Below are positions 46,660-61,444 of a stretch of DNA of 64,000 bases, in pieces. This DNA is from Candidatus Woesearchaeota archaeon (GTDB lineage Archaea > Nanobdellota > Nanobdellia > UBA10117 > ARS21): contig CAYFNR010000001.1 of NCBI GenBank assembly GCA_964344605.1, positions 23,439 to 87,438 of the forward strand, written 5' to 3'. The notes beneath the pieces were generated by a model. It was not told where the DNA came from. It was given only the letters and a program-made list of their open reading frames with translations, and did no database searches. Within the stretch, counting starts at the first letter, position 1. Each line of letters begins with the position of its first letter. The position numbers and the translations under genes are program-made.

Positions 46660-48009
46660 ATGGAAAATTTGTACCCTTATACTTTGGATAAGCACCAAAA
46701 TAAACCAAAACCATATCATTTCATTGAATATGGTGGGAAAGATATAATTACAGAATTCAAAGAATCTAGGGCAGCCGCTCTTAAGTACTTTGATGATACT
46801 GAAAGCAAACAATATACTTTGTTTCGTTTGTCTAACTCTGATAAGACGGCTATGGAGAAATTTAATACTGGAGAGAAAGTAGAAACAAAGCAATTGTTAG
46901 AAGAGCTATGTTATTATTTGTTTTCAGGAGAAGATATGGCAGAGTATAGGGACATGTTTGAGGAATTACGCAGAATGTCAGAGCTTAGGAAACTTAAGAA
47001 TAGTTATGGTGGGAAATTTGGTGGGAGTGGAGCGGATGTAGAAACATATGTTTTTTTGGCAAATGCTTTGAGTTTACATCATGAAACAACTGGAGACTTG
47101 CAATCGCTGAGTACTTTGCTTAAGACAAATGACCGAATTATATCGATGAAAGAAGATTTGAACAAAGAAAGAAGATACTTAGCTGCTAGAGCTATAGAAC
47201 AAGAAAGCTCGCATCTTAGAAAAATCTACGCTTCTCTTGAAAATCGTCCCCTTGGAGATAGACTTAATCCAATAGAATCTAGTAAGCCTTCTTTAGAGAA
47301 AATACAAAGATTAGGCTTACTTGCACAAGATTCTCCAAGATCTAGAGCATATATCCAAACTCTGGCACAAAATGGACTGCTGCCCGAGAGAGCAATTATA
47401 CTGAGTAAAGATGTTGAAGATTATGGTTTAGGAGAGGTGGTAGAAAATCCCTTCTTTGATACTCATGAGAAACTCACGGAAACCATATCTTATTATGATA
47501 TACCTTACCAGATGGTGCAAGCGAACAACTTCAACGACCAAAAAGTTGTGGATGCAGTAAAGGATAGTGATGGAGATTATTTCGTGTTTAGTGGGTCAGG
47601 GATACTTAGGAAAGATATTTTATCTACAGGCAAAAAATTGATACACATACATCCAGGCAAACTTCCTGAGTTTAGAGGCTCAACTGTTATATATTACACT
47701 CTTCTTTCAGGAAATGTTTGTACGGCATCAGCTTTTGTTATCAGTGATAAAATAGATATGGGAGAAGTTATTACTTCAAAAGAATTTTTGCCGCCAACCC
47801 CAGACATGGATAATGGCAGGGTTTATGATCCATATATTAGAGCGAATGTTCTTGTGGATGTTATTAGGGAACTGAGAGACAAAGGAAAACTGGAAACCTA
47901 TACACAAAACAAAGGTGGCCAGACTTATTATATTATACACCCTATCCTCAGAACACTAACTGATGCGTATGTGCGTGATGAAATACAGTCGTTAGAAGAT
48001 ATAGTTTAA
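46660..48009 (+). CDS. Protein with a C-terminal formyltransferase-like domain and an unknown N-terminal ~250 aa
   Basis: LIHIHPGKLPEFRGSTVIYYTLLSG and ISDKIDMGEVI resemble the formyl_trans_N core, but His replaces the catalytic Asn of the NxH motif. Confidence 0.55.
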   Translation: MENLYPYTLDKHQNKPKPYHFIEYGGKDIITEFKESRAAALKYFDDTESKQYTLFRLSNSDKTAMEKFNTGEKVETKQLLEELCYYLFSGEDMAEYRDMFEELRRMSELRKLKNSYGGKFGGSGADVETYVFLANALSLHHETTGDLQSLSTLLKTNDRIISMKEDLNKERRYLAARAIEQESSHLRKIYASLENRPLGDRLNPIESSKPSLEKIQRLGLLAQDSPRSRAYIQTLAQNGLLPERAIILSKDVEDYGLGEVVENPFFDTHEKLTETISYYDIPYQMVQANNFNDQKVVDAVKDSDGDYFVFSGSGILRKDILSTGKKLIHIHPGKLPEFRGSTVIYYTLLSGNVCTASAFVISDKIDMGEVITSKEFLPPTPDMDNGRVYDPYIRANVLVDVIRELRDKGKLETYTQNKGGQTYYIIHPILRTLTDAYVRDEIQSLEDIV

Positions 48010-48785
48010 GTTGATGAATTGTAAAATCTCTTCAAGCTATTTTCTTCAGCCCAAGCAAGCGCTTTTTCATAATCATTAACTGTATCAAATTCCAGCCAAC
48101 CTTGTGATATTTTTATTGCTTTGACTTTTACGCCATTATCTATTAGTGCTTGGAGAAAATCGGTCATGTAACCTTCTTTGAGAGAGGGAGAATTGTACCA
48201 CGGCTTATCCCAAAACCTATTTTTTGCTCGACCATATACTTTTTCTGCTTTATTTAAGATACCTTTTGAGAATTTTACCATCCCGATATATCTTGCGTCG
48301 ATATCTTTATTTATTGGGTTTGGGTCTCCTAAAGAGACTATATTATCTGCGTCCAATTCAAGACTTTCAGTATCTTCTTTATCACTTCCATGCCTGGCCA
48401 TCCAATAATCTCTCCAGTTTATATCAACAACACATCCTACTTCACCTTCAAAATCAATAACTTTTCTCAATACATCTTCTTCGAATAGAATATCTCCATA
48501 AATCATTAAGATGTCATCATCGAATTCTTTTTTAGAAAGGAAAAAATTGACTAACATATTTACACCAGACTCAGCTTGCTCTAGGTATTTTACTCCTTCT
48601 ATATCTATTTTATTGGACAGGTACCCTCTTACAACAATTATGTCTGTTATACCACATTCACGCAATAAGTCCACTTGTCTTTGGAGGATGGTTTTTCCTA
48701 AAAAAGGGAGCATGCATTTGGGTATAGTTTTAGTGTATTTTTTTAGCCTAGTTCCTTCTCCTGCAGCCAATATGACGGCTTTCAT
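48006..48785 (-). CDS. LicC-type nucleotidyltransferase (Cj1416-like candidate cytidylyltransferase)
   Basis: MKAVILAAGEGTRLKKYTKTIPKCMLPFLGKTIL N-terminal signature. Last gene of a three-gene minus-strand unit. Confidence 0.8.
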   Translation of the reverse strand: MKAVILAAGEGTRLKKYTKTIPKCMLPFLGKTILQRQVDLLRECGITDIIVVRGYLSNKIDIEGVKYLEQAESGVNMLVNFFLSKKEFDDDILMIYGDILFEEDVLRKVIDFEGEVGCVVDINWRDYWMARHGSDKEDTESLELDADNIVSLGDPNPINKDIDARYIGMVKFSKGILNKAEKVYGRAKNRFWDKPWYNSPSLKEGYMTDFLQALIDNGVKVKAIKISQGWLEFDTVNDYEKALAWAEENSLKRFYNSST

Positions 48786-49393
48786 CTCCAGAATAACCTC
48801 CTCTCTAAAAAAGCTTTAATTAACTTTTTATTAACTCCTTCATTTGGACTGGGTCTTTCTGGGTGCCATATAAATCCCGCGATGGGTTTGTTAGGATGGA
48901 ACAAGCCTTCCACAGTACTATCTTCAGCTATTGCAAAGGGTTTTAATTCTGGAGCCAAACTATTTTTTTGCATCCCATAATCATGAAATGAATTGACCTC
49001 AAATTCTTTACCAATAAGTTCCGCGACCCTTTCTTCAGTGATACTAACTTTGTGATTTTTTGATGTGTGGTTGTCTACTTCTACAAGTTTTCCTCCAAAG
49101 AATAGGTTAATGAATTCAATACCTTTACATATACCTAAAATTGGTATATTCTTTTCCAAAGCTTTTTTTACAAGTTTAGACTCTGTTTCATCTCTGGCTT
49201 GTGTTGCTTCGCCCCCACTTAGAATAATACCTTGAACTGGAAGGGCAAGGTACTCCTCAGTAAGTCCTGGTACATTAGGTACAGGGATTAGTGTTACTCC
49301 AAACGATTTGAAATATTCAACATACGGCCTTTCTAGGTAGTCTACTGTATTGTACATTTCTTTTCTCGATCGCTGAGATATTAAGATCAGCAT
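48782..49393 (-). CDS. Class-I glutamine amidotransferase-like / peptidase C26 hydrolase (Cj1417-like candidate)
   Basis: 203 aa with the nucleophile elbow LGICKGIEFIN, plus NSFHDYG and the GFIWHPE His/Glu region. Confidence 0.8.
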   Translation of the reverse strand: MLILISQRSRKEMYNTVDYLERPYVEYFKSFGVTLIPVPNVPGLTEEYLALPVQGIILSGGEATQARDETESKLVKKALEKNIPILGICKGIEFINLFFGGKLVEVDNHTSKNHKVSITEERVAELIGKEFEVNSFHDYGMQKNSLAPELKPFAIAEDSTVEGLFHPNKPIAGFIWHPERPSPNEGVNKKLIKAFLERRLFWR

Positions 49394-49394
49394 T

Positions 49395-52271
49395 TTATTT
49401 CACTATTTTAATGTTCTCCTTTTTACAATCCAATAATAACGTTTTTCCACCTTTAATCTGTTCGAATAATTCACCGCACCCGATTGCGGCCGGAAGTCCG
49501 AACTCTGCGCAGCGTATGGACATATGGGAAGCGACTCCACCATACTTGGTGATTAGACCAGCAGGCTTTTTTGTGAATATCCAATCGTAACCTGGATCTC
49601 CATTTTCTATAAGTACAATTTTATTTTCTAAGTTTGGGGTTGTATCATTGCCAGTCAAAACAAAAATATCTGCTTCTACTCTCTTTTGTGTCGTAAAATT
49701 GGGTTTTGGTTTGTAGGAGGATACGACTTCAAAATCTTTCCAGGATTGTATGATTGGTGGCAAGATTAGGGAGTTATTTATTCGGCGCTCTCCGATGCGA
49801 TGTTCTATTACTGTTTCTAATATAGATTTAATTTTTCCTATATCTTCTATTTCCGAAGCAAGCTTTATAGAATTAATATCTAACTGAGATAATAACTCTC
49901 TTGAAAATCCCAAGTCTCTCCCAGCATCCGCAATTAACTCCATTGCATCGCTAAGATTTTTAGAAAACTCAAATTTCGAAAATTCTCTAGACTCTAACGC
50001 GTCTTTCGTAAACGCGAAAAGTTCTTTTGAGTTGAATATGAGACCGTGCTCTTTTAATATATCTGAGATTTTTTTGTGAACGGCACCGTCAATTTCGAAA
50101 CTTTCCTTATTTTCTTGCTGTATTGAGTTCAACTTTCCACCTAATAAATCAGGATTTTTATCATACCTCTGTACCGTAATGTCATACGTTCCCGGACGTA
50201 GGTGCCCATATAGATTAAGGAATTTTTCTTTGCTGAGTTCGCCGTTAACTAAGGTATTAAAATCATCGTTCATTTTGGAAGCTACCGTGTATATGGAATT
50301 CATGAAGTTCTGATAAAAGGTTTTTTCAATAATACCTTCTGTCGATAAGCTGTTCAAAATTATTTTACCAATAAAAGCAAGTCTTGCTAACCTTGAGAAC
50401 TGGACAGTCCCTTGAGACACACAATTATCAAGTAAGTCCACAGCTAGACTTAGTTTTTCTTGTGTAGAGACTCCTTTCGAAACTTTATCATGAATTTTTT
50501 TCCTGAAAGCTTCCATATTTTTTGCTGTGTTTAGATCTGTTTTAATATCTTCTTTGTTCGCAAATAAGTTATTGGTCAAATCTAGTAACGCTGTCCTGAG
50601 TTCAGCTATTTCTTGGTTAGAGAAACCAGCTTCCTTCAGCTCTTTCGAACGTTTTTCAAAACCCAAATCATAACAAGTATACAGAACTTTAAACTCAACT
50701 TTATCTTGTAGCTCTTGATTATTTCTCAATTTGTTTATGTAAAAATCAACCAGTTTTCCCCTTAATTTTTTTGAAACTGGACTTGGTACAAATGAGTTAA
50801 ATGTATTCCTCACATTTATATATGGTTTATTTCCAAAAAGAACGACAAGCTTTGCAGGGTTGACATCGTAGTAGTTTTGAGATGTCCTTGCCTTGTGCCA
50901 GGCTGAATCTGTAATTATGTAATCATATAAAGAGTAATCTAGATAATTAGGATTTGATCCAATTATTTCAGCAGGGTTCCAATCGGGCATGTCGGCAAAG
51001 ATAGTGTTATCTCCTGCTAAATGTTCTTGCCTTTGCGAAATGTTCGAGAATTGTTGTTTTAGGTCTTCAATTTTTTCTTTCACTTCAACGTCTAGATTAT
51101 AAGAGGATTTTATATTTACACTCATAGGTCTGACTTGAAAGATTACGACTTCCCCATCTTTATTTACAGCAAATTCTATATCCAATTCCATGTTCGGTAA
51201 GAGTGATTCAATCTCTTTTACAGCAAGAAGAACTTTTTGTAAGTTCGCGGGGAAATTTTCCTCGTCGCAAGAACGCGAAATATATACAACTTTATTCTCA
51301 AGACCTTTTGTTACTGTGTCAGTTAAACCTGTAACATCATCGTAATTGATTACGTAATAGGGATTGTTCGTTTCCAACTGTCTTGTAAAAATAACTCCAC
51401 TACATTTTGGGTCTTTTGTCTGTCTTTGTACAAGTATTTGATTGCTTGTATGGTAGGAGTTTTTTTTAGTATATGTTTCAATTACTTTTTCAACTGCAGT
51501 TTTAATTTCTTTTTTGTCCCTGACTTTAACATCTAGTTCACTATAGAAGTAACCTGCCATGGAGTTTTCAAGAGAATCTTCATTCAATGCAGAACTCCTG
51601 ACAACAATTTTTTCTGAGCCAGAGAAAAACTCTTGTATTTGATTTAAAACATATTGTTCATTACTTTCCCATTCAGCTACAGTAAATACGAAAGAATCCT
51701 CAATCTTTCCATTTTTTAGAGTCAATTGTAGCGATTTGAGAGTGTCGGCTTTTGTAGATATTTTCGCTTTTGCCGAGCCTTCAGAAAACTCTTGTATTTT
51801 AAAAAACTTGGTGAAGGTCTCAAAATCTTTGAATAAATTTTTATAATGTTCAAACAGTTTATTAATTATTCTAAAGTCAGATAGACCAGCATAGTAAGGA
51901 TGTTGTACAAGCCTAGCCCCAATTTGTTGTAAGCTTGAAGCTGCAGGATATTTTCTCCAGTTAGACCCTAACACAACCAATAATTCAACGTCCGGGAATC
52001 TTTCCCTAATCTTCTTTAAGTTAATTATTGGGTCAAAGTCTTCTTGTATTATTACTTCATCAACACATTTTAATCCAGATACTACAGCTTTTCTTTCTTC
52101 TAAATTCGCTATTGGTTTTCTTTTGGTTGTTTGGGTAGCTTCGTCGCTAAGTACACCACAAATATGATAATCCCCTATGGAGTTCGCAAATTCCAAAGAT
52201 CTAAGATGGCCGTAGTGGAACAAATCAGCAACTACTGGACTGTAAGTGATACGTTTAATTTTCTTAGACAT
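49395..52271 (-). CDS. Fusion of a TagD-like cytidylyltransferase domain and a PEP-synthase/PPDK-like phosphohistidine kinase (Cj1418-like candidate amide kinase)
   Basis: 958 aa. N-terminal HxGH (DLFHYGHLRS). ATP-grasp PPDK_N-like blocks IVVRSSALNEDSLENSMAGYFYS and DIEFAVNKDGEVVIFQVRPM. C-terminal swivel domain GGVASHMSIRCAEFGLPAAIG, with the His codon at 49524-49526. Confidence 0.85.
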   Translation of the reverse strand: MSKKIKRITYSPVVADLFHYGHLRSLEFANSIGDYHICGVLSDEATQTTKRKPIANLEERKAVVSGLKCVDEVIIQEDFDPIINLKKIRERFPDVELLVVLGSNWRKYPAASSLQQIGARLVQHPYYAGLSDFRIINKLFEHYKNLFKDFETFTKFFKIQEFSEGSAKAKISTKADTLKSLQLTLKNGKIEDSFVFTVAEWESNEQYVLNQIQEFFSGSEKIVVRSSALNEDSLENSMAGYFYSELDVKVRDKKEIKTAVEKVIETYTKKNSYHTSNQILVQRQTKDPKCSGVIFTRQLETNNPYYVINYDDVTGLTDTVTKGLENKVVYISRSCDEENFPANLQKVLLAVKEIESLLPNMELDIEFAVNKDGEVVIFQVRPMSVNIKSSYNLDVEVKEKIEDLKQQFSNISQRQEHLAGDNTIFADMPDWNPAEIIGSNPNYLDYSLYDYIITDSAWHKARTSQNYYDVNPAKLVVLFGNKPYINVRNTFNSFVPSPVSKKLRGKLVDFYINKLRNNQELQDKVEFKVLYTCYDLGFEKRSKELKEAGFSNQEIAELRTALLDLTNNLFANKEDIKTDLNTAKNMEAFRKKIHDKVSKGVSTQEKLSLAVDLLDNCVSQGTVQFSRLARLAFIGKIILNSLSTEGIIEKTFYQNFMNSIYTVASKMNDDFNTLVNGELSKEKFLNLYGHLRPGTYDITVQRYDKNPDLLGGKLNSIQQENKESFEIDGAVHKKISDILKEHGLIFNSKELFAFTKDALESREFSKFEFSKNLSDAMELIADAGRDLGFSRELLSQLDINSIKLASEIEDIGKIKSILETVIEHRIGERRINNSLILPPIIQSWKDFEVVSSYKPKPNFTTQKRVEADIFVLTGNDTTPNLENKIVLIENGDPGYDWIFTKKPAGLITKYGGVASHMSIRCAEFGLPAAIGCGELFEQIKGGKTLLLDCKKENIKIVK

Positions 52272-52288
52272 TAGTTGCCTCTTGTGAG

Positions 52289-52302
52289 ATATTTATTTAA
52301 AG
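52289..52302 (-). promoter_or_regulatory. TATA-box candidate for the 52271 kinase operon
   Basis: The minus strand reads ctttaaataaatat, ending about 18 nt upstream of the ATG, in a divergent intergenic region. Confidence 0.35.
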
Positions 52303-52384
52303 ATAATGAAAGAAAAGTACACAGATTCGAATTGTAGAATAGTATTTGATAATCTTTATTAACTAATTACTTCAACAAGCCAGA

Positions 52385-53167
52385 ATGGCCGAGAAGAGCC
52401 TGTACCAAATTTATATGAAGGATGGCATGTATCAATCTAATTTAAGAGGCCATAGTCTGTACTTAAAATTTATTCGTTGGTTGGGATTTTTTCCATTTTA
52501 CATATTTCATAAATTAGGTCTCACAGCAAATGCAGCGTCCTTTGTAGGGTTCTTAATAGAATTGCTTGGGGTTGGACTTTTCCTAACGTCACATTATTTT
52601 TTGGCGGCGCTTATGATTTTCATAGGTGTAGTTTTTGATTTCTTTGATGGTGTTCTCGCAAGAACGCGAAATGAAGTTGGAACTCTCAATACAGCCCTAC
52701 TCTGTAGTTTACATCATTTCTTCACACCTACTTTAGTTCTAGCTGCAGGATTTATTAATTACTATTTTTTGACTAAAGATGTTGATGTCCTTTTGCTTGC
52801 TCTTGTTGTAGGGGTGGCTTCTGCCATGACTTTTCAACTTATTATAATACGTGGCAGAGCCCTGTTTAAGTACTATCCTGGCTTTGCAAACAAACAAGAA
52901 GAAGTTCTTGTCAATAGGAGACATAGTATAATATTCAGAACAGAACAGTTGCTGGAGAGAATTATTGATCACGGATATGCTATGATATTAGTATATGCTG
53001 TTAATCCTTTGGTATTCATTGGTCTGTTTTCAATTTTGATACCAGCAAGGCTTTTGAGCGTTTTCACTTATTTTTACTTTACAAACAGGAAACTCGAGAA
53101 GCAACTTGTAAAGTATAAGAAAGAACATACTAAAGGAGAAGGAGGTAGAAAGCTATATAATATTTAG
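52385..53167 (+). CDS. CDP-alcohol phosphatidyltransferase-like membrane protein, divergent motif
   Basis: 260 aa, polytopic. DFFDGVLAR is present, but the downstream GxxxDxxxD is replaced (TRNEVGTLNTALLCSLHH). Confidence 0.65.
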   Translation: MAEKSLYQIYMKDGMYQSNLRGHSLYLKFIRWLGFFPFYIFHKLGLTANAASFVGFLIELLGVGLFLTSHYFLAALMIFIGVVFDFFDGVLARTRNEVGTLNTALLCSLHHFFTPTLVLAAGFINYYFLTKDVDVLLLALVVGVASAMTFQLIIIRGRALFKYYPGFANKQEEVLVNRRHSIIFRTEQLLERIIDHGYAMILVYAVNPLVFIGLFSILIPARLLSVFTYFYFTNRKLEKQLVKYKKEHTKGEGGRKLYNI

Positions 53168-53184: not shown

Positions 53185-54051
53185 ATGGCAGAAGAAAAGA
53201 AAGGAAATCCAACAACTTTTTTAGATTGGGGAAAAACAACTGGAAACCACAGAGTTACATATGCCTATCATGAAGGTCAAGAGGCCTATGATCTGTATAT
53301 GGGTGCAAGATATGTTTGCGATATGATTGCATATCGCAATGGAGAAATAGATAAAGTGTTTCATCCAGAAGACTTAAGAGATAATACCAGAAAATACTCG
53401 GGTCTTGTTGCATGCGATAATGGCTCAGACGAACTTACTTTTTATGAAGTTGGTTCTTCAGTAATGGGTGTTATAGATGCTTTGGAGTATTTGAATATTG
53501 AGTATAACCAACTAGATATCAAAGATACTAAATTCCTTGGAGTTGATAACTCTAAGTGGATGAATGCTGTTGCTGAATATACTCATGAGCAGTACAATTT
53601 AAAATTATGGGAAGATGTAAAAGATGCTGAAGGTGTAGAGTGTGATTTGTTCTTTGCAAAAGGTGTTTCTTTGATGTATGCTTTCCAAGATGAAGACGCC
53701 ATGTGTGACGTGCTAAAAAATAGCAAACTCGCGATATTTGATTACACTTTTTCTTTGGATGGGAAAATACAAGATCATACTGGAACAGGATTAGGAGTTA
53801 CTTATTTGAATTTAGACAAATGTAAAGGAATTCTCGAGAGAGAAAAGGGTAAAATATTGGTGATGAAGCCCTATCAAATCAAAACTTACCATCAAGGAGA
53901 CCCGACTAAAGCCAGTTTTGATTGTATATATGGGGAGAGGGAAATAATTGATAAGTATCTTGCTGATTTAGAAGATAAAACTGGTGAGAATCTATACAAC
54001 TATGGAAATCCAAAGTTCATAAAAGGTGGTAGAGTTTACAACATAGAGTAG
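53185..54051 (+). CDS. Hypothetical soluble protein, possible Rossmann-fold methyltransferase
   Basis: 288 aa, preceded by AAGGTGAT. A weak motif-I-like FYEVGSSVMG is followed by FLGVDNS and CDLFFAKGVSLMYAF. The assignment is tentative. Confidence 0.45.
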   Translation: MAEEKKGNPTTFLDWGKTTGNHRVTYAYHEGQEAYDLYMGARYVCDMIAYRNGEIDKVFHPEDLRDNTRKYSGLVACDNGSDELTFYEVGSSVMGVIDALEYLNIEYNQLDIKDTKFLGVDNSKWMNAVAEYTHEQYNLKLWEDVKDAEGVECDLFFAKGVSLMYAFQDEDAMCDVLKNSKLAIFDYTFSLDGKIQDHTGTGLGVTYLNLDKCKGILEREKGKILVMKPYQIKTYHQGDPTKASFDCIYGEREIIDKYLADLEDKTGENLYNYGNPKFIKGGRVYNIE

Positions 54052-54052
54052 T

Positions 54053-54820
54053 CTACCTCTTCTTTTCTATTTTTTTCAATATATTATATGTAGACTTGAA
54101 AAAAACAACAGATCTAAGTGGTACAAATAATCCGTAAAAGATTAAGTAGGAGCTTGTTATATTATACTCAAAGAAATAAAGCAGCAGGACAACAGTAGTT
54201 ATTTCTCTAAGCCGATATGTTGGAAAGGATGCCAATTTTAGAAGTAGTAAATCTTTTCTATTTGCTAACCCTATTTGAGAAGGAATTGCTTTATGCAGCT
54301 TATATGCGCGTCCTTTAACAGCTTCCGGATTTCTTAAAATTACCAACTGCTTTAATAAGAGTAGAAATCCTGTCGCCAATTGAAAAAAACCAGCAGCAAA
54401 ACCTGCATATAATAGCCAGATATCTCCGCTTAACTTGTAAAAACCAAACCCGAGACCAACAAATATGAAAGAGGGGTTGATATGGTGATATGTTCTTCCT
54501 AAGAATCCACTCTGTAATTTCGTAACACCTTTCCTACACCTCGCAACGAGTCCGTCCATATAATCAAAAAACTCTCCAAAATAAAATAGTAGCAGCCCAA
54601 GTGCAAAGTATATAGGCTTTCCAAAAGCAAAGAATAAGGAAGCCAAGAGTATAATTAATATAGAAAGTAGAGTTACCATGTTGGCCGTTATTGGTGTTTT
54701 TAGAATAGCCCATACACAATATACAGCTATTCTCCTAAAAAATTTATACACGATGCTAACTTTAAAATGTCGATCTCTATTATATGCCTGCTTTTTGATT
54801 TCTCTCACACTAGTTTTCAT
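54053..54820 (-). CDS. CDP-alcohol phosphatidyltransferase-like membrane protein, divergent motif
   Basis: 255 aa, polytopic. ITANMVTLLS and DYMDGLVAR are present, and the second half-motif is replaced (CRKGVTKLQSGFLGRTYHH). Confidence 0.65.
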   Translation of the reverse strand: MKTSVREIKKQAYNRDRHFKVSIVYKFFRRIAVYCVWAILKTPITANMVTLLSILIILLASLFFAFGKPIYFALGLLLFYFGEFFDYMDGLVARCRKGVTKLQSGFLGRTYHHINPSFIFVGLGFGFYKLSGDIWLLYAGFAAGFFQLATGFLLLLKQLVILRNPEAVKGRAYKLHKAIPSQIGLANRKDLLLLKLASFPTYRLREITTVVLLLYFFEYNITSSYLIFYGLFVPLRSVVFFKSTYNILKKIEKKR

Positions 54821-56070
54821 TTGAATAACACGTTGAATTTGCTTTTGTCATATAACCCTTCTGAAACTTTTCCGTCGAAGTCTTTTTTATTGAGTAGCAA
54901 ATGGTGCTCGTTGTGGGAAGTAGAAACTAAATCTCCTACAAAAACCGGGCCCTTACAAACCCTTTGCATTTCTTTCACAACTTTGGACGCGTGCTCTTTA
55001 TCTGGGAAATACTGAAAGATGGAATATGCAAACACTTTATCGAAGCTGTTATCTATAAAAGGCAAAATACTCGCTTCTCCAACCACAACATTATTTTTTA
55101 GTATTTTGTTGTGTTTTTTAACCATAGATTTCGCATAATCCATGCCAATATAGTTACACTTTAAATATTGTGCAATCATGCCTGCTCCACATCCAACTTC
55201 TAAAACTTTATCCTTTTCTTTGATATTGAGGATATCTGTTAGTTCGTTTGCAATTTTTCCGATATTAGCACCAGTTAAATCAAAACCATCGAGCCTGACA
55301 AGATCTGAAGTGTCTTCATTTCCTTTACGCTCCCATATCTCTTTCCAATTGAGCTTGAAGGCTTTTTCCAGTTTAGGATAAGTTATTTCCCTGGCTCTTT
55401 GTAGATCCTCCTGTGTATCTATCTTTGTCCAAATAAGGTCTTCAACACATAGAGAAGATATGGGAGTTCCTTTTTTAGCTAATTTTAAGATACCTTCTTC
55501 AAGCCACAACTTCTTATTATCTCTTATTTTTGCCAGTTCATTAACGAAGTCCTTTGTTAATTTAGATATGCCAATAAATTCACCACTGGATTTGTCCCTG
55601 TTCAAATCTTTTCCTAGATTAGTAATATAATTTGACTCGTCTGTGTACACTAAAATTTCATCTCCAGACCCGCTAATTTTTGAAGTTAATATGATATTTT
55701 CCTCTTTGGCAGATAATATTTTTTTAATGGCACTTGGAGTATATAATAAATCGGATTCAATAACTAGCACAGCATCATCTATCAAATCTTTAGCACAAAG
55801 TAAAGAAAATAAACTATCAGTTTCAAGGTATTCGCTGTTATCAACATAAGTTATCTTTATACTATTATATATATTACCCAATCTTCTTTTAATTTTATCT
55901 CCCAAATATCCTGTAACCAAAATTACTTCATTTATTCCATTATGTAATAGTGACTTAAACGAATAATCTAATAAAGATTCACCTTTAATATCTACCAAAC
56001 ATTTTGGCATGTTGTTTGTGAGAGGGCTAAGTCTCCTTCCTTGCCCCGCGGCAAGAATCACAGTTTTCAT
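54817..56070 (-). CDS. Fusion of a LicC-type nucleotidyltransferase and a class I SAM-dependent methyltransferase
   Basis: N-terminal MKTVILAAGQGRRLSPLTNNMPKCLV. C-terminal motif I VLEVGCGAGMIAQYL and motif II-like FDKVFAYSIFQYF. Confidence 0.85.
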   Translation of the reverse strand: MKTVILAAGQGRRLSPLTNNMPKCLVDIKGESLLDYSFKSLLHNGINEVILVTGYLGDKIKRRLGNIYNSIKITYVDNSEYLETDSLFSLLCAKDLIDDAVLVIESDLLYTPSAIKKILSAKEENIILTSKISGSGDEILVYTDESNYITNLGKDLNRDKSSGEFIGISKLTKDFVNELAKIRDNKKLWLEEGILKLAKKGTPISSLCVEDLIWTKIDTQEDLQRAREITYPKLEKAFKLNWKEIWERKGNEDTSDLVRLDGFDLTGANIGKIANELTDILNIKEKDKVLEVGCGAGMIAQYLKCNYIGMDYAKSMVKKHNKILKNNVVVGEASILPFIDNSFDKVFAYSIFQYFPDKEHASKVVKEMQRVCKGPVFVGDLVSTSHNEHHLLLNKKDFDGKVSEGLYDKSKFNVLFK

Positions 56071-56072
56071 TC

Positions 56073-57137
56073 CTAGCTAAGGATATCCTCTTTTTTAATA
56101 TCTTTTAAGGCTCCGAGCAGTACTTCATTATCTTTTTTATTTCTTACTCCTAAACGTATAAATGAATCGGTGTCAAACTCTTTCTGGTTCAGACCTTCTT
56201 TTACCATGAGCCTATGATTATCATATAGTGTCTCAGCTAGCTTTCTAGCACTACCTTCAACTTTACAAAATACTGCGTTTGCGCTGGTTGGATAAGGAGT
56301 TAGGTAAGGTATATCATTTAGATTTTCAAGAAACCATTTAGTATCTTCAACACTTTTAACAATAGATTCTTCATGTTCCTCTTTATAATCTGGAAGCATT
56401 TCGATTATATATTCAGTAACTGAGTTTATGTTCCAAATAGGTAAGTGAGCTCTTACTTTCTTTTTTACATTTTCATTGCTCGTAAGCATGTAACCCAACC
56501 TAAGACCTGCAATGCCAATAGATTTCGTACAGCTCGCAACAACAATTAAATTATCATATTTCGATATAAGTTGTTCTGCAGAGTGCTCCGGACCAGCGAA
56601 AGTCATAAACGCTTCGTCAACAATTAAGTTCACTCCAGAGTTTAATATATATTCAATATCCTTTATAGGTGTAAGATTGCCAACAGGATTGTTTGGATTT
56701 ATTATAACGGCGTATTCGCTGTTTGATTCGTTTACTTCTTCTATTAATTTGTTTGGGTCTAAAATGAAATCATTTTCTTCGTCCAAAAGATATTTATGGA
56801 TTTTATCCTCTGGCAATCTCACAAATTCATTGAAAGTAGGCAGTGCGACTGTGACTTTAGTTATCACATGGTCATTAAGCATACGAATGAGTTCAGAGGA
56901 ACCATTTCCTATAACAAGGTTGTCTGCATTGAAGTAATCTTCATCTTTCCATTTAGCAAGTAGTTCTGCTATTACACGCTGACTTGAGGGGTAATAATTC
57001 CCTATTTTTGGCAGTTGGTCCGCCAGCTCCTTATAAAACTCTTTTGTTGGAAAATAGTGATTGAATAAATAGTGAAAGTCCAAGTGGTCATCTCGCCAAT
57101 AACCTCCGTGCCTGCTTCTTATCTCGTCAATTCCCAA
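56073..57137 (-). CDS. Class I/II PLP enzyme of the HisC/CobD type (candidate phospho-amino-acid decarboxylase or aminotransferase)
   Basis: N-terminal HGG, then NPNNPVG, LIVDEAF and the PLP-Lys context SCTKSIGIAGLRLGY. TTG start 2 nt after the upstream stop; there is no ATG until about residue 84. Confidence 0.75.
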   Translation of the reverse strand: MGIDEIRSRHGGYWRDDHLDFHYLFNHYFPTKEFYKELADQLPKIGNYYPSSQRVIAELLAKWKDEDYFNADNLVIGNGSSELIRMLNDHVITKVTVALPTFNEFVRLPEDKIHKYLLDEENDFILDPNKLIEEVNESNSEYAVIINPNNPVGNLTPIKDIEYILNSGVNLIVDEAFMTFAGPEHSAEQLISKYDNLIVVASCTKSIGIAGLRLGYMLTSNENVKKKVRAHLPIWNINSVTEYIIEMLPDYKEEHEESIVKSVEDTKWFLENLNDIPYLTPYPTSANAVFCKVEGSARKLAETLYDNHRLMVKEGLNQKEFDTDSFIRLGVRNKKDNEVLLGALKDIKKEDILS

Positions 57138-57139
57138 GA

Positions 57140-58978
57140 TTAAACACCTTCAAATATTTCCTCTGCCATTTTAAGATCATTTACATCATCAATCTCAAAC
57201 CACTTACCTTTCGTCTCAGGTGCTGAGATTGTACATCCCTTAGTTACGATATTCTTAAAAATTGTTTCAATTGGTTCCGTTCCGCCAGTTTCTTCAATGT
57301 GAGTCTTTAGCTCAGGTTTGAGCCAAGTATTAATGAACTCTTTCGAAAAGCTATGTATATTTACAGTTTTGTATTTGTTCTCAATTTTGAATTCCTCTGG
57401 CCTGTCTTTTTTATGTATCCACGCCTTGACTATCCCATTATCAACTTCCACAAAAGACCCATCTAACTTTGAGTTCCACTTTTCTACCAAGGTTTTGTTC
57501 TTGTGTTTATCATCTATGAACGATTTAAGTAACTTGCTTTCAAAGAAGATGTCACCTTCTAAAATTAACAGATCTTCATCCAAATTTTTTATTCCAATCC
57601 ATAAAGAATAGCTGTTGTTTGTTTTATCATAAATATTACTTTTGATATATTTTATTTTAATCCTTTTAAAGGAATCTCCAATTTTTTCTTGGATTTTGTT
57701 CGCCAAGTATCCTACAACAAGTGTAACTTCGTTGATTCCAAATTCATTTAATCTACTAAGTGTGTTTTCAAGTATTGATTTACCATTTATTTTAACAAGA
57801 CATTTTGGTATATCGTCAGTGACAGGCTTTAAGCGAGTTCCCATGCCAGCAAGTAAAATAATAGCTTTTTTTGGTTTAACCGTTTTTGAAGTAGATGGAC
57901 TAAAACCAACTCTACATAATACTTCTTTAAAATTTTTAAGGAAGCTGTCAATATCTTCTTTGAACAAATTCCCAAGAGTTGCAACTCTAAATATACCTTT
58001 GTCTAAAGTACTTTGTCCGGAGTATATTGTAAAACCTCTCTTTTTCAGTTCGTCGTGTATTACCCAGTAATCCATATCTTTTGGTAAGTGTATTGAAGTG
58101 AGTATATTTGATTGCAAGTTATCTGGGAGTATAAATTTAAACCCCATTTCACGTAGACCTTCGCGCATATACTCCGCGTTTTCTTTCTGCCGTTTAATTC
58201 TGTTCTCTACTCCTTCTTTAATTAGCTCATCAAGTGCTTTGTCCAAGGCAAAAAATAATTGTACAGCTGGAGTAAAAGGTAGCTGCTTACTTTTTTCTGC
58301 ACTTTCCCATTGATTATACAGATTAAAATAGAAACTACGAGATTTACCTTTCAGTTTTTCTATATCACTTTTTTTCGCTATAACAAAAGAGATTCCAGGA
58401 AAACTTTGTAGACATTTATTGGCACTAACAGTACAGAAATTAATATTATCTTTTACTACATCTATTTTATATCCCCCAAGACTGCTGATAGTATCTGCAA
58501 CGGTAATTACACCATATTTTTTGGCCAACTGTCCTAAGTCATGTAGAGGTAGAATCATTCCAGTTGTGGTCTCGTGGTGCACAAAAACCATATGTGTAAT
58601 ATCTGGGTTGGATTCTAACTTTGAGTCTATTTGTCCCAAATCAATTGGTTTTAATGGGTCAAATTTGAGCTCAATTAGAGGTATATTGTAGCGTTCTGTT
58701 ATTTCACCAAGTCTTTTTGCATACTTACCATTATTTATCAGTAAAACTTTTCCGTGAATAGAAGATATAATTGCTTCATTACATCCTGTACCTGATGATA
58801 CGAAAGCAACAACTGAATGAGTCTCTTCACCATTCACAACTTTCAAAAGTTTCTTTCTAACTTTTGTTAAAACCTCAAAGAATTCTGACTCTCTGTGACA
58901 TATATCGTGGGTCTTGATAGCATTTCGGACTCCATTAGAAACATTTGTTGGGCCCGGATTAAAGAGCATATTTTTCAT
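57140..58978 (-). CDS. Fusion of a 2-aminoethylphosphonate:pyruvate aminotransferase-like domain (class V) and a LicC/PntC-type nucleotidyltransferase
   Basis: PhnW-like blocks LFNPGPTNVS, VHHETTTGMILPL, SANKCLQSFPGISFVIA, FRVATLG. The C-terminal half has AIILLAGMGTRLKPVTDDIPKCLVKINGKSIL. The track start at 59020 is TTG; the ATG at 58978 or 58969 is preferred. Confidence 0.85.
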   Translation of the reverse strand: MKNMLFNPGPTNVSNGVRNAIKTHDICHRESEFFEVLTKVRKKLLKVVNGEETHSVVAFVSSGTGCNEAIISSIHGKVLLINNGKYAKRLGEITERYNIPLIELKFDPLKPIDLGQIDSKLESNPDITHMVFVHHETTTGMILPLHDLGQLAKKYGVITVADTISSLGGYKIDVVKDNINFCTVSANKCLQSFPGISFVIAKKSDIEKLKGKSRSFYFNLYNQWESAEKSKQLPFTPAVQLFFALDKALDELIKEGVENRIKRQKENAEYMREGLREMGFKFILPDNLQSNILTSIHLPKDMDYWVIHDELKKRGFTIYSGQSTLDKGIFRVATLGNLFKEDIDSFLKNFKEVLCRVGFSPSTSKTVKPKKAIILLAGMGTRLKPVTDDIPKCLVKINGKSILENTLSRLNEFGINEVTLVVGYLANKIQEKIGDSFKRIKIKYIKSNIYDKTNNSYSLWIGIKNLDEDLLILEGDIFFESKLLKSFIDDKHKNKTLVEKWNSKLDGSFVEVDNGIVKAWIHKKDRPEEFKIENKYKTVNIHSFSKEFINTWLKPELKTHIEETGGTEPIETIFKNIVTKGCTISAPETKGKWFEIDDVNDLKMAEEIFEGV

Positions 58979-59041
58979 TGGCCTAATTTTAGAGTAGTCG
59001 CTTAAAAGGATTTCGCGCAATTATTCTATATTACTCTTCTA

Positions 59042-60691: not shown

Positions 60692-60710
60692 GCGCCGAAA
60701 TCTTTGATAA

Positions 60711-60725
60711 ATGTATATAAGTATT
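60711..60725 (-). promoter_or_regulatory. TATA-box candidate for the pepM operon
   Basis: The minus strand reads aatacttatatacat, with TATA ending about 22 nt upstream of the pepM ATG (leaderless-type spacing). Confidence 0.35.
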
Positions 60726-60739
60726 ATGAAAACGAAGTC

Positions 60740-61444
60740 TCATTTATTTTTCATAGACTTCTTATCATATTTTAATACAGTTCTTAATTGCATTGCTAGA
60801 ATTACTATCCAAAATAAATTACCAAATGTTGCAAAGAAAATTAGAATCCATTCTGCTAAATTAAGTGCTACCAATATTGGCAGGAACACAAATAGTGTAG
60901 ATGTCCCATATACAAACCGCAGTTTGTTCTTTTTATTTATCAATTTTATTTTTCTCTTTGACAGTAAAGGATCAAAATCATATTTGAAAATATAAATTAT
61001 AAGAAATTGTAGTGGGAAGCATATTGCTGCTAGTGTTCCCCAAAGTAGCCAAGTATATTCTCTTAGTCCTAAAGCTACAGACAGGAAAATAAAAGGCAAT
61101 GATAAGTATCCAATCATACTGTCCAGCCACTTACCTTTCAGGCTTGATAATTTCATTACTCTAGCCATTTTTCCATCGAGGTGATCCAAAATGTAAGTCA
61201 AGAAAATTAAAATAGCACCGAGTAGTCTGTAGGTATAAGGGTTGTTGCTGAAGCCACTAAAACCTAAAAATGCCAGACCACCAATCATTACAAAAATTGA
61301 AAGATAAGTTATTTGATTTGGAGTTATACTTGTATATCTGAGCATAAATTTGGTTAAAGGTATGGTTACTTTCCTAAATAAATATCCCAAAATATCAGTT
61401 TCTTTGTTTTTAACCATTAGCTTCAAGTCATATTTTTTCTTCAT
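60740..61444 (-). CDS. CDP-alcohol phosphatidyltransferase family membrane protein
   Basis: 234 aa, polytopic. The motif DHLDGKMARVMKLSSLKGKWLDSMIG matches DxxDGxxARx8GxxxD but has Gly in place of the final Asp. Confidence 0.7.
   Translation of the reverse strand: MKKKYDLKLMVKNKETDILGYLFRKVTIPLTKFMLRYTSITPNQITYLSIFVMIGGLAFLGFSGFSNNPYTYRLLGAILIFLTYILDHLDGKMARVMKLSSLKGKWLDSMIGYLSLPFIFLSVALGLREYTWLLWGTLAAICFPLQFLIIYIFKYDFDPLLSKRKIKLINKKNKLRFVYGTSTLFVFLPILVALNLAEWILIFFATFGNLFWIVILAMQLRTVLKYDKKSMKNK

What the first reader, a model, noticed from the sequence alone, without database searches (positions are those of the whole stretch)
48006..52271. Archaeal counterpart of the Campylobacter cytidine-diphosphoramidate (O-methyl-phosphoramidate precursor) pathway: a Cj1416/Cj1417/Cj1418-like trio in conserved order
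Seen: three co-directional minus-strand genes are packed as one unit (1-nt gap at 49394, 4-nt overlap at 48782-48785). (i) A PPDK/PEP-synthase-like kinase has an ATP-grasp region (IVVRSSALNEDSLENSMAGYFYS; DIEFAVNKDGEVVIFQVRPM) and a C-terminal swivel phosphohistidine domain (GGVASHMSIRCAEFGLPAAIG, His codon 49524-49526). (ii) A class-I GATase/peptidase-C26-like hydrolase carries GICKG...WHPE. (iii) A LicC-type nucleotidyltransferase carries AAGEGTRL...IPKCML. Established: in C. jejuni these three families, adjacent and in this order, are Cj1418, Cj1417 and Cj1416. Cj1418 is an L-glutamine kinase that phosphorylates the amide N through a phospho-His intermediate. Cj1416 is the CTP:phosphoglutamine cytidylyltransferase. 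Cj1417 is the gamma-glutamyl-CDP-amidate hydrolase. Together they make cytidine diphosphoramidate, the donor precursor for the capsular MeOPN modification (Raushel/Holden work). Inference: this archaeal glycan locus makes a nucleotide-activated phosphoramidate (P-N bond). I am not aware of this chemistry being described in Archaea. No APS-kinase-like Cj1415 gene is adjacent.
Basis: partly seen in the sequence, partly recalled or inferred. Interest (0 to 1): 0.88.

Follow-up and report, generated by a model that had tools for sequence, protein, structure and literature searches.

The report
Archaeal glutamine-kinase phosphoramidate gene cassette
A DPANN archaeon carries the same three-gene cassette that Campylobacter uses to make a nitrogen-phosphorus sugar-coat donor; the cassette proves to be widespread in bacteria and archaea, and here it has an extra fused enzyme domain and unfamiliar partner genes.

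Summary
Three tightly packed minus-strand genes encode a PEP-utilising kinase, a C26/GATase hydrolase and a LicC-type nucleotidyltransferase. The kinase scores 846 bits against NCBIfam PRK05849 (cutoff 501). The hydrolase's best family is gamma-glutamyl-CDP-amidate hydrolase. In 60 of 70 related loci from bacteria and archaea the order kinase, hydrolase, transferase is kept. Kinase-hydrolase, transferase-kinase and APS-kinase-kinase fusions exist elsewhere. The Cj1418/1417/1416 reading is therefore well supported, though by homology only.

It also missed a conserved formyltransferase-fold partner gene (46660-48009).

No APS-kinase (Cj1415) homologue occurs in the 64 kb. CDP-alcohol-phosphotransferase-like genes and a phosphonate (PEP mutase) cluster flank the cassette.

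Novelty is moderate. At least 544 GTDB species encode the kinase, including cultivable haloarchaea. JGI already labels archaeal homologues "glutamine kinase". A Borg study already predicted the pathway in archaeal elements. The downstream chemistry here remains unknown.

The parts
49395..52271 (-). 958-aa fusion protein: an N-terminal TagD-like cytidylyltransferase domain joined to a glutamine-kinase-type PEP-utilising enzyme
   Evidence: Pfam finds CTP_transf_like, PPDK_N and PEP-utilizers. NCBIfam NF004508 scores 846 bits over residues 167-957. The AlphaFold model has pLDDT 81.4, and its best PDB fold match is rifampin phosphotransferase.
51852..52253 (-). Cytidylyltransferase (HxGH) domain, residues about 7-140, with motif FHYGH at residues 18-22
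   Evidence: The best PDB sequence hit is the Fom1 CyTase domain 5x3d (47.8 bits). Fold matches are 5x3d at TMt 0.77 with 33% identity, and TagD 2b7l at TMt 0.82. H19, G21 and H22 are at least 90% conserved in 20 homologues.
49401..51773 (-). Kinase proper, residues 167-957: ATP-grasp domain, central helical domain and C-terminal swivel phosphohistidine domain
49524..49526 (-). Codon of His916, the predicted phospho-carrier histidine (GGVASH)
   Evidence: His916 is invariant in alignment A1 and lies inside the PEP-utilizers mobile domain.
48782..49393 (-). 203-aa class-I GATase / C26 hydrolase, the predicted gamma-glutamyl-CDP-amidate hydrolase (triad Cys89, His177, Glu179)
   Evidence: The best NCBIfam hit is NF045546 at 99.5 bits over its full length; the next best family scores 62.8. 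The triad is 100% conserved in 67 cassette homologues.
48006..48785 (-). 259-aa LicC-type nucleotidyltransferase, the predicted CTP:phosphoglutamine cytidylyltransferase
   Evidence: Pfam finds NTP_transf_3 and NTP_transferase. LicC 1jyk scores 45.7 bits. It is the conserved third gene of the cassette. JGI names the 49%-identical homologue P0210 'L-glutamine-phosphate cytidylyltransferase'. G9, G11, R13, K23 and D98 are conserved.
46660..48009 (+). 449-aa conserved partner: an N-terminal helical domain of unknown function joined to a C-terminal formyltransferase-fold domain (HxHPG..RG..IDxG)
   Evidence: Pfam finds Formyl_trans_N. The model has pLDDT 86.9 and matches Fmt, ArnA and sugar N-formyltransferases. 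The two halves occur as separate adjacent genes next to the cassette in other bacteria and archaea; 24 loci carry this family. Fusions of this fold with APS kinase exist (P0251 and P0252).
52272..52384 (.). 113-bp AT-rich divergent intergenic region between the cassette and the 52385-54051 gene pair
   Evidence: Read directly from the sequence. A promoter function is inferred, not tested.
52385..53167 (+). 260-aa membrane protein resembling CDP-alcohol phosphotransferases, divergent from the kinase; a candidate transferase
   Evidence: Pfam CDP-OH_P_transf scores 23.9 bits. The DxxDGxxAR motif is present but the distal Asp pair is absent. Its role is inferred only.
53185..54051 (+). 288-aa protein of unknown family that recurs beside the cassette
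   Evidence: It has no Pfam, NCBIfam or PDB-sequence hit. Homologues of 45-49% identity lie next to the cassette in L006, L013 and L024, and a weaker one in L025.
54053..54820 (-). 255-aa CDP-alcohol-phosphotransferase-like membrane protein
   Evidence: Pfam scores 30.7 bits. Relatives lie near the cassette in 15 other loci.
54817..61444 (-). Adjacent phosphonate-type gene block, probably a separate pathway in the same surface-decoration island. It comprises an NT-methyltransferase fusion (54817-56070), an aminotransferase (56073-57137), an aminotransferase-V plus NT fusion (57140-59020), a PEP mutase plus NT fusion (59042-60691) and a third CDP-OH_P_transf gene (60740-61444).
   Evidence: Pfam results.

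Best explanation
The three genes are an operon for a nucleotide-activated phosphoramidate, working as Cj1418, Cj1416 and Cj1417 do in Campylobacter.

Inferred steps:
1. [quoted passage not shown]
2. A cytidylyltransferase joins CMP from CTP to that phosphate, giving CDP-L-glutamine. This could be the 259-aa LicC-type enzyme, the TagD-like domain fused to the kinase, or both.
3. The C26 hydrolase (Cys89/His177/Glu179) removes glutamate, leaving cytidine diphosphoramidate.

The product then decorates a surface glycan or lipid of this DPANN (Woesearchaeota-like) archaeon. The later steps differ from Campylobacter. The window has no APS-kinase-type 3'-kinase. It has instead a conserved formyltransferase-fold partner and CDP-alcohol-phosphotransferase-like membrane proteins.

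Shown: the gene structure, family assignments, conserved catalytic residues, conserved gene order and the fusions seen elsewhere. Inferred: every substrate and product.
For: Family assignments:
- The kinase scores 846 bits on NF004508/PRK05849 (cutoff 501) and 61 bits or less on PEP synthase, PigC and rifampin-phosphotransferase models.
- JGI names same-architecture homologues of 48-53% identity 'glutamine kinase'.
- His916 is invariant.
- The fold is the three-domain rifampin-phosphotransferase type.
- The hydrolase's best family is gamma-glutamyl-CDP-amidate hydrolase over its full length (99.5 bits, next family 62.8). Cassette hydrolases from Legionella, Cohnella, Marinobacter, Bacteriovorax, Pacearchaeota and Haloferax score 68-134 bits, so the window protein is typical of the cassette outside Campylobacter. 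Its triad is 100% conserved.
- JGI names a transferase homologue 'L-glutamine-phosphate cytidylyltransferase'.

Linkage:
- The order kinase, C26, NT on one strand holds in 60 of 70 loci from DPANN, haloarchaea, a thaumarchaeote and many bacterial phyla.
- Fusions elsewhere tie the parts together: Kin-C26 (P0365, P0373), NT-Kin, APS-kinase-Kin, APS-kinase-CT-Kin (P0056) and formyltransferase-fold with APS kinase.

Context:
- The surroundings are a glycan island with a flippase-like protein and GT2 and GT4 glycosyltransferases.
- The Campylobacter pathway is established: Cj1415-1418 make CDP-phosphoramidate 3'-phosphate from glutamine, ATP and CTP (PMC11800397).
Against: - There is no biochemical or analytical evidence for a P-N product in any archaeon.
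- I could not obtain the Cj1416, Cj1417 or Cj1418 sequences, so similarity to them is indirect, through HMMs, database names and synteny.
- The hydrolase is below the NF045546 equivalog cutoff (99.5 against 250).
- The transferase matches only generic nucleotidyltransferase models.
- The link between NF004508 (named 'hypothetical protein') and Cj1418 rests on my own recollection plus the JGI names.
- The second, fused cytidylyltransferase domain is unexplained. It does not replace the 259-aa gene, which is kept in CT-fused loci, including the triple-fusion locus L083.
- No Cj1415 homologue occurs in the 64 kb. No recognisable Cj1421/1422-type transferase could be searched for.
Confidence: 0.75

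Rival explanations
1. The cassette stops at CDP-L-glutamine or uses another amino-acid amide. A CDP-linked amino-acid phosphate is the real donor, transferred by the neighbouring CDP-alcohol-phosphotransferase-like proteins, much as CDP-threonine is used in C. difficile flagellin glycosylation. The C26 protein would then act elsewhere, for example in salvage or proofreading.
For: CDP-activated amino acids serve as phosphotransfer donors in C. difficile (bioRxiv 10.64898/2026.02.12.704994). CDP-OH_P_transf-like genes lie near the cassette in 16 of 81 loci and are enriched beside CT-fused kinases (10 of 21 against 5 of 59). No APS kinase is present in the window.
Against: The C26 hydrolase is almost always the middle gene of the cassette and is sometimes fused to the kinase, which argues for an obligatory deglutamylation step. 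Its best family is the CDP-amidate hydrolase. The C. difficile pathway uses a phosphoserine-phosphatase-like enzyme, not a PEP-utilising kinase. The window's 255-aa and 260-aa CPT-like proteins lack the distal Asp pair of the family signature. The CPT enrichment is confounded by lineage.
Confidence: 0.1
2. The trio belongs to the adjacent phosphonate pathway (PEP mutase block at 54817-61444). The PEP-utilising kinase and the cytidylyltransferases would activate a phosphonate rather than glutamine.
For: PEP mutase-NT and aminotransferase-NT fusions lie 2.5-9 kb away. The fused CT domain is most similar to the Fom1 cytidylyltransferase domain, which acts on a phosphonate. The same combination of genes is reported in the Cobalt Borg. 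In L036 a match to the CT domain and a 40%-identical match to the window's PEP mutase-NT fusion protein lie about 7 kb upstream of a cassette.
Against: In the 80 related loci, true PEP-mutase hits near the cassette are rare. L036 is the only clear case; the other hits are cross-matches to the NT part. The cassette is conserved without phosphonate genes in most lineages. A glutamine-type hydrolase has no role in known phosphonate routes. The phosphonate block has three NT domains of its own.
Confidence: 0.05
3. The three genes are unrelated housekeeping enzymes (a PEP synthase, a GMP or anthranilate-synthase glutaminase subunit, and a sugar-1-phosphate nucleotidyltransferase) that happen to be neighbours.
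For: Each protein gives weak hits to such families: PEP synthase 60 bits, guaA 63 bits and archaeal GlmU 82 bits. RefSeq annotates bacterial cassettes only generically.
Against: The kinase scores 846 bits on a distinct family model. The gene order is conserved in 60 of 70 loci across two domains. Fusions link the kinase to the hydrolase, to NT domains and to APS kinase.
Confidence: 0.02

Closest known systems
Campylobacter jejuni MeOPN precursor pathway (Cj1418 L-glutamine kinase, Cj1416 CTP:phosphoglutamine cytidylyltransferase, Cj1417 gamma-glutamyl-CDP-amidate hydrolase, Cj1415 CDP-amidate 3'-kinase)
   Same: The same three protein families occur in the same transcription order. The swivel histidine, the Cys-His-Glu triad and the NT signature are conserved. 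The genes are embedded in a surface-glycan locus.
   Different: The kinase carries an extra N-terminal TagD-like cytidylyltransferase domain. No APS-kinase homologue occurs in the 64 kb. A formyltransferase-fold protein is a conserved partner; to my knowledge the Campylobacter locus has none. CDP-alcohol-phosphotransferase-like proteins and a phosphonate block are neighbours. The hydrolase is below the Campylobacter-centred equivalog cutoff. The organism is a DPANN archaeon.
Predicted MeOPN gene cluster of the Cobalt Borg (genes 308-311, plus 319) of Methanoperedens (bioRxiv 10.1101/2024.11.05.622173)
   Same: Both are in an archaeal setting. Both combine a glutamine-kinase-like gene, a hydrolase, a cytidylyltransferase, a PEP mutase-cytidylyltransferase fusion and a PntC-aminotransferase fusion in one surface-decoration region. 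Both are in-silico predictions only.
   Different: The Borg is an extrachromosomal element; the window is chromosomal, carrying PolD, LonB and SerRS. The CT-kinase fusion and the formyltransferase-fold partner are not mentioned in the passages of that paper that I read.
Rifampin phosphotransferase / PEP synthase / PPDK (PEP-utilising phosphohistidine enzymes)
   Same: All share the architecture of an ATP-grasp domain, a substrate domain and a swivel-histidine domain. The best PDB fold matches are 5hv1 and 5fbs.
   Different: The sequence family is distinct (27-61 bits on their models against 846 on PRK05849). The genomic partners differ.
Fom1 (cytidylyltransferase-PEP mutase fusion of fosfomycin biosynthesis) and Kennedy-type CT plus CDP-alcohol phosphotransferase pairs
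   Same: A TagD-like HxGH cytidylyltransferase domain is fused to an enzyme of phosphorus metabolism (33% identity to the Fom1 CyTase domain). CDP-alcohol-phosphotransferase-like genes lie next door.
   Different: The fusion partner is a glutamine-kinase-type enzyme, not PEP mutase. The substrate of the CT domain is unknown.

Membership tests
L-glutamine kinase (Cj1418 type, EC 2.7.3.13; NCBIfam NF004508/PRK05849) | Scores above the curated cutoff on the family HMM and far above sister families | tested here: met
   846.3 bits against a cutoff of 501. PEP synthase, PigC and rifampin-phosphotransferase models score 61 bits or less. That Cj1418 belongs to PRK05849 rests on my own knowledge and on the JGI name 'glutamine kinase' given to homologues.
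L-glutamine kinase (Cj1418 type) | ATP-grasp domain, central domain and C-terminal swivel domain with a phospho-carrier histidine | tested here: met
   Pfam finds PPDK_N and PEP-utilizers. His916 is invariant. The fold matches rifampin phosphotransferase.
L-glutamine kinase (Cj1418 type) | Direct sequence or phylogenetic grouping with Cj1418 itself | not tested
   The Campylobacter sequence could not be obtained with the tools. The 80 best loci did not reach Campylobacter, and the primary papers are not held.
L-glutamine kinase (Cj1418 type) | ATP + L-Gln gives AMP + Pi + N5-phospho-L-glutamine | not testable with these tools
   This needs an enzyme assay (31P NMR).
gamma-glutamyl-CDP-amidate hydrolase (Cj1417 type; NCBIfam NF045546) | Class-I glutamine amidotransferase fold with a Cys-His-Glu triad | tested here: met
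   Pfam finds Peptidase_C26 and GATase. C89, H177 and E179 are 100% conserved in 67 homologues.
gamma-glutamyl-CDP-amidate hydrolase (Cj1417 type; NCBIfam NF045546) | Reaches the equivalog cutoff of NF045546 | tested here: not met
   99.5 bits against a cutoff of 250, although it is the best family over the full length. All six other cassette hydrolases tested also fall below the cutoff (68-134 bits), so the cutoff appears to be centred on Campylobacter.
CTP:phosphoglutamine cytidylyltransferase (Cj1416 type) | LicC/NTP_transf_3 fold with the GxGxR...K signature, encoded as the third gene of the cassette | tested here: met
CTP:phosphoglutamine cytidylyltransferase (Cj1416 type) | Specific family-level assignment rather than a generic nucleotidyltransferase match | tested here: inconclusive
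   Among the 25 best of 36 NCBIfam matches listed, none is a dedicated model. One homologue of 49% identity is named L-glutamine-phosphate cytidylyltransferase by JGI, while NCBI uses 'phosphocholine cytidylyltransferase family'.
Complete MeOPN system (Cj1415-Cj1422) | APS-kinase-type cytidine diphosphoramidate 3'-kinase (Cj1415) | tested here: not met
   No tblastn hit in the window (best E 0.78). The P-loop protein at 44296-45495 shares only the Walker A motif with the cassette APS kinases. The gene may lie elsewhere in the genome.
Complete MeOPN system (Cj1415-Cj1422) | MeOPN transferases (Cj1421/1422) and O-methyltransferase(s) | not tested
   No reference sequences were available. The only methyltransferase domain nearby is fused to an NT at 54817-56070.
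TagD/ECT/Fom1-type cytidylyltransferase (the N-terminal domain) | HxGH nucleotide-binding motif and the small Rossmann-like fold | tested here: met
   FHYGH at residues 18-22. Pfam CTP_transf_like scores 49.4 bits. H19, G21 and H22 are at least 90% conserved. TMt is 0.77-0.82 to 5x3d and 2b7l.

The most novel reading that the evidence does not exclude
In this DPANN lineage the phosphoramidate pathway is rewired into a Kennedy-type route. The fused TagD-like cytidylyltransferase channels the kinase's labile product. The resulting CDP-amidate (or CDP-glutamine) is used directly by the neighbouring CDP-alcohol-phosphotransferase-like membrane proteins, with release of CMP and no PAPS-like 3'-phosphorylation. 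This would install a P-N head group on a lipid or glycan. The conserved formyltransferase-fold partner would modify the nitrogen, for example to an N-formyl phosphoramidate. Together these would make a previously unseen archaeal surface modification, sitting beside a C-P (phosphonate) decoration pathway.
Probability: 0.15. Interest if true: 0.85.

Novelty: new variant of a known kind. Interest (0 to 1): 0.55.

Why it matters
[quoted passage not shown]" (PMC6429109). The survey here shows the committed-step kinase in at least 544 GTDB species and about 1,500 protein clusters. It is nearly always linked to the same hydrolase and transferase. The hosts include DPANN archaea, cultivable haloarchaea and many environmental bacteria. 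If the homology holds biochemically, P-N surface chemistry is common and spans two domains of life. It would also come in variants with new partner enzymes: fused cytidylyltransferases of two unrelated folds, a formyltransferase-fold protein, and sulfotransferase-like or CDP-alcohol-phosphotransferase-like candidates. For host-dependent DPANN cells, surface decoration is likely to matter for host contact.

Tried and rejected
- **Primary Campylobacter papers.** I tried to read the Raushel/Holden papers (PMC5629633, PMC5938751, PMC6643271, PMC5938747). None is held.
- **Campylobacter sequences.** I could not reach them. The genome scan returned only the 80 best loci, and none is Campylobacter. 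The plasmid collection holds 14 bacterial cassettes, again none from Campylobacter.
- **44296-45495 as a Cj1415 analogue.** Rejected. Only the Walker A motif aligns with cassette APS kinases.
- **C. difficile CDP-threonine (Fta) pathway as a closer relative.** Rejected. Its phosphorylating enzyme is phosphoserine-phosphatase-like, not PEP-utilising.
- **Dependence on the neighbouring phosphonate genes.** Rejected. PEP mutase is absent near most cassettes.
- **Fused CT domain replacing the 259-aa transferase.** Rejected. Nearly all CT-fused loci keep that gene (L006 is an exception), including the APS-kinase-CT-kinase triple-fusion locus.
- **CT fusion or formyltransferase partner against APS kinase.** I looked for anticorrelation and found none (p 0.77 and 0.39).
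- **53185-54051.** It gave no Pfam, NCBIfam or PDB-sequence match.
- **RNA features.** Rfam and tRNA scans of the window found nothing.

Full report
**Observation**

The three minus-strand ORFs are exactly as described: 49395-52271 (958 aa), 48782-49393 (203 aa) and 48006-48785 (259 aa). There is a 1-nt gap at 49394 and a 4-nt overlap at 48782-48785. All quoted motifs are present, and His916 maps to 49524-49526.

Pfam finds PPDK_N and the PEP-utilizers mobile domain in the large protein. It finds Peptidase_C26/GATase in the second protein and NTP_transf_3/NTP_transferase in the third.

Residues about 7-140 of the large protein are a CTP_transf_like domain with the HxGH motif (FHYGH). Its closest solved relative is the cytidylyltransferase domain of Fom1. 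By sequence, 5x3d scores 47.8 bits. By fold, it gives TMt 0.77 at 33% identity, and TagD gives TMt 0.82.

**Organism**

The window is chromosomal archaeal DNA. It encodes both PolD subunits, an archaeal LonB, CDC48 and SerRS. The closest homologues of the kinase come from Woesearchaeota and Nanoarchaeota MAGs, and identical contigs come from an ENA metagenome. The cassette sits in a surface-glycan island of about 30 kb with slightly lower GC. The island holds a flippase-like protein, GT2 and GT4 glycosyltransferases, sugar epimerases and a B12-radical SAM enzyme.

**Family assignments**

*Kinase.* Residues 167-957 score 846 bits on NCBIfam NF004508/PRK05849 (cutoff 501). PEP synthase, PigC and rifampin-phosphotransferase models give 61 bits or less. 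JGI names several homologues of 48-53% identity and the same architecture 'glutamine kinase'. His916 is invariant. The predicted structure (pLDDT 81.4) has the three-domain rifampin-phosphotransferase architecture. No Cj1418 structure turned up in the PDB copy searched.

*Hydrolase.* Its best family, over the full length, is NF045546, gamma-glutamyl-CDP-amidate hydrolase. It scores 99.5 bits, against 62.8 for the next family, but the equivalog cutoff is 250. As a calibration, cassette-linked hydrolases from Legionella, Cohnella, Marinobacter, Bacteriovorax, Pacearchaeota and Haloferax score 68-134 bits. All have the same best family. The window protein is therefore typical of the cassette outside Campylobacter. 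Cys89, His177 and Glu179 are 100% conserved in 67 homologues.

*Transferase.* It matches only generic models. However, JGI names a 49%-identical homologue 'L-glutamine-phosphate cytidylyltransferase'.

**Conservation of the cassette**

The 80 best loci include:
- DPANN archaea: Woese-, Pace- and Iainarchaeia, and a MAG labelled Altiarchaeales;
- three haloarchaea: Natrarchaeobius oligotrophus, Haloferax elongans ATCC BAA-1513 and strain SHRA6;
- a Marine Group I thaumarchaeote;
- many bacteria: Leptospira, Legionella, Marinobacter, Pseudomonas, Cohnella, Planctomycetota, Omnitrophota and CPR.

Of 70 loci with at least 2 kb downstream of the kinase, 60 have kinase, C26 and NT on one strand in that order. 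In 49 of them the genes are tightly packed. An exhaustive search of 1.84 billion representative proteins gives 1,519 clusters at E of 1e-30 or better.

Fusions seen elsewhere tie the components together:
- kinase-C26 (P0365, P0373);
- APS-kinase-kinase and APS-kinase-CT-kinase;
- formyltransferase-fold with APS kinase (P0251, P0252).

An NJ tree places the DPANN kinases in one clade, with a CPR sequence as sister. The haloarchaeal sequences sit in two places among bacteria, which suggests several transfers.

Fourteen bacterial plasmids carry the cassette. RefSeq names the genes only generically: 'PEP-utilizing enzyme', 'gamma-glutamyl-GABA hydrolase family' and 'phosphocholine cytidylyltransferase family'.

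**Mechanism**

The best-supported reading follows the Campylobacter scheme. In Campylobacter, Cj1415-1418 make CDP-phosphoramidate 3'-phosphate from glutamine, ATP and CTP (PMC11800397).
1. The kinase makes L-glutamine phosphate through phospho-His916.
2. A cytidylyltransferase makes CDP-L-glutamine.
3. The C26 enzyme releases glutamate to give cytidine diphosphoramidate.

All substrates are inferred.

**What differs here**

*A second nucleotidyltransferase.* The kinase carries a second, fused nucleotidyltransferase. Among the 150 best representative clusters the architectures are:
- 67 unfused kinases;
- 29 with the TagD-type domain, as in the window;
- 50 with an unrelated LicC/NT259-like domain at the same N-terminal position.

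Loci with a fused kinase nevertheless usually keep the separate 259-aa-type gene. This includes the triple-fusion locus L083. Two unrelated folds recruited to the same position suggests tight coupling of cytidylyl transfer to the kinase. Channelling of a labile product is one possible reason. Why two transferases are needed is unexplained.

*No APS kinase.* No homologue exists in the 64 kb. The P-loop protein at 44296-45495 shares only the Walker A motif with cassette APS kinases.

*A formyltransferase-fold partner.* The convergent neighbour 46660-48009 joins a helical domain of unknown function to a genuine formyltransferase fold. Its model has pLDDT 86.9, and its best matches are Fmt, ArnA and sugar N-formyltransferases. 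The residues HxHPG, RG and IDxG are invariant. Its two halves occur as separate genes next to the cassette in Leptospira, Cohnella, Pseudomonas and other DPANN, often together with an APS kinase. The family never co-occurs with another recurrent neighbour, a protein with an apparent N-terminal membrane anchor and a GDS (SGNH-like) motif and no Pfam match: 0 of 24 against 13 of 56 loci, p = 0.008.

*CDP-alcohol-phosphotransferase-like neighbours.* These flank the cassette at 52385-53167 and 54053-54820. Relatives are enriched beside CT-fused kinases (10 of 21 against 5 of 59, p = 3e-4). This is confounded by lineage, and the two window proteins lack the distal Asp pair of the family signature.

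*A phosphonate-type block.* Genes at 54817-61444 encode a PEP mutase-NT fusion, an aminotransferase-V-NT fusion, a further aminotransferase, an NT-methyltransferase fusion and a third CDP-OH_P_transf protein. No phosphonopyruvate decarboxylase was found among the window ORFs scanned.

**Comparison with what is known, and novelty**

The trio is a member of the Cj1418/1417/1416 kind. The idea of an archaeal counterpart is not wholly new. A Borg study already predicts a glutamine kinase, hydrolase and cytidylyltransferase in the Cobalt Borg of Methanoperedens. It places them beside a PEP mutase-cytidylyltransferase fusion and a PntC-aminotransferase fusion. That is essentially the gene set seen in this window.

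In the held library no paper mentions MeOPN together with DPANN or haloarchaea. A 2019 review still states that these modifications are known only from Campylobacter.

Three things appear new relative to that literature: the breadth of the cassette, the convergent nucleotidyltransferase-kinase fusions, and the formyltransferase-fold partner. I therefore rate the finding a new variant of a known kind, of moderate interest.

A practical point is that Haloferax elongans carries sulfatase-like, kinase, C26, NT and APS-kinase genes in a row. This offers a cultivable archaeon in which to test for P-N chemistry.

**Limits**

There was no direct comparison with the Campylobacter proteins and no biochemistry. 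My ORF clustering used simple calls and thresholds. The association tests ignore phylogenetic non-independence.

Noticed in passing
window 51852-52253 (-), and proteins P0299-P0401: The kinase family is fused at its N-terminus to a nucleotidyltransferase of two unrelated folds in different lineages: TagD/HxGH type in DPANN (29 of the 150 best representative clusters) and LicC/NTP_transf_3 type in bacteria and haloarchaea (50 of 150). A separate LicC-type gene is still kept downstream. The need for two transferases is unexplained.
   Followed up: partly
window 46660-48009 (+): A 449-aa protein with a helical N-terminal half of unknown family and a C-terminal formyltransferase fold that keeps the His/His/Asp motif. 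It is a conserved partner of the cassette in bacteria and archaea and is fused to APS kinase in P0251 and P0252. Its substrate is unknown; N-formylation of the phosphoramidate is a guess.
   Followed up: partly
window 54817-61444 (-): A phosphonate-type block: PEP mutase+NT fusion (59042-60691), aminotransferase-V+NT fusion resembling PntC-AEPT (57140-59020), class I/II aminotransferase (56073-57137), NT+methyltransferase fusion (54817-56070) and a CDP-OH_P_transf gene (60740-61444). No phosphonopyruvate decarboxylase was found among the window ORFs scanned, so the route after phosphonopyruvate may be unusual. Counting the cassette, five nucleotidyltransferase domains lie within about 13 kb.
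   Followed up: partly
window 53185-54051 (+): A 288-aa protein with no Pfam, NCBIfam or PDB-sequence match. Homologues of 45-49% identity sit beside the cassette in L006, L013 and L024, and a weaker one in the bacterial locus L025.
   Followed up: partly
window 52385-53167 (+) and 54053-54820 (-): Two CDP-alcohol-phosphotransferase-like membrane proteins keep DxxDGxxAR but lack the distal Asp pair of the canonical signature. Relatives near other cassettes often have His in place of the last Asp.
   Followed up: partly
window 44296-45495 (+): A 399-aa protein with a weak NTP_transf_5-like N-terminal part and a C-terminal Walker A P-loop (IAIIGMDGSGKST). It has no homologue in any of the 80 related loci and is not an APS-kinase analogue.
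   Followed up: yes
L047 7533-14478 (Haloferax elongans ATCC BAA-1513): A compact module of sulfatase-family protein (600 aa), kinase, C26, NT and APS kinase, followed by an IS1595 transposase. This is the full Cj1415-1418 set in a cultivable archaeon, probably acquired from bacteria.
   Followed up: partly
L086 (Azospirillum lipoferum 4B plasmid AZO_p6) 3641-13107: A plasmid-borne cassette with an 846-aa protein (650 aa unknown plus APS kinase), a SAM methyltransferase, the trio, and two sulfotransferase-domain proteins. The sulfotransferase-domain proteins are plausible users of a PAPS-like 3'-phospho-CDP-amidate donor.
   Followed up: no
L002, L003, L004, L008, L009, L013, L023, L025, L026, L042, L067, L071, L072: A protein of about 425 aa with an apparent N-terminal membrane anchor and a GDS (SGNH-like) motif, but no Pfam match, recurs beside the cassette. 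It never co-occurs with the formyltransferase-fold partner (0 of 24 against 13 of 56 loci).
   Followed up: no
window 30000-63000: The glycan and phosphorus-chemistry island has lower GC (0.33-0.36) than the housekeeping part of the window (0.38-0.41). It also holds a B12-binding radical SAM enzyme (37506-38990) and an LPG_synthase_TM protein (39023-39967).
   Followed up: no
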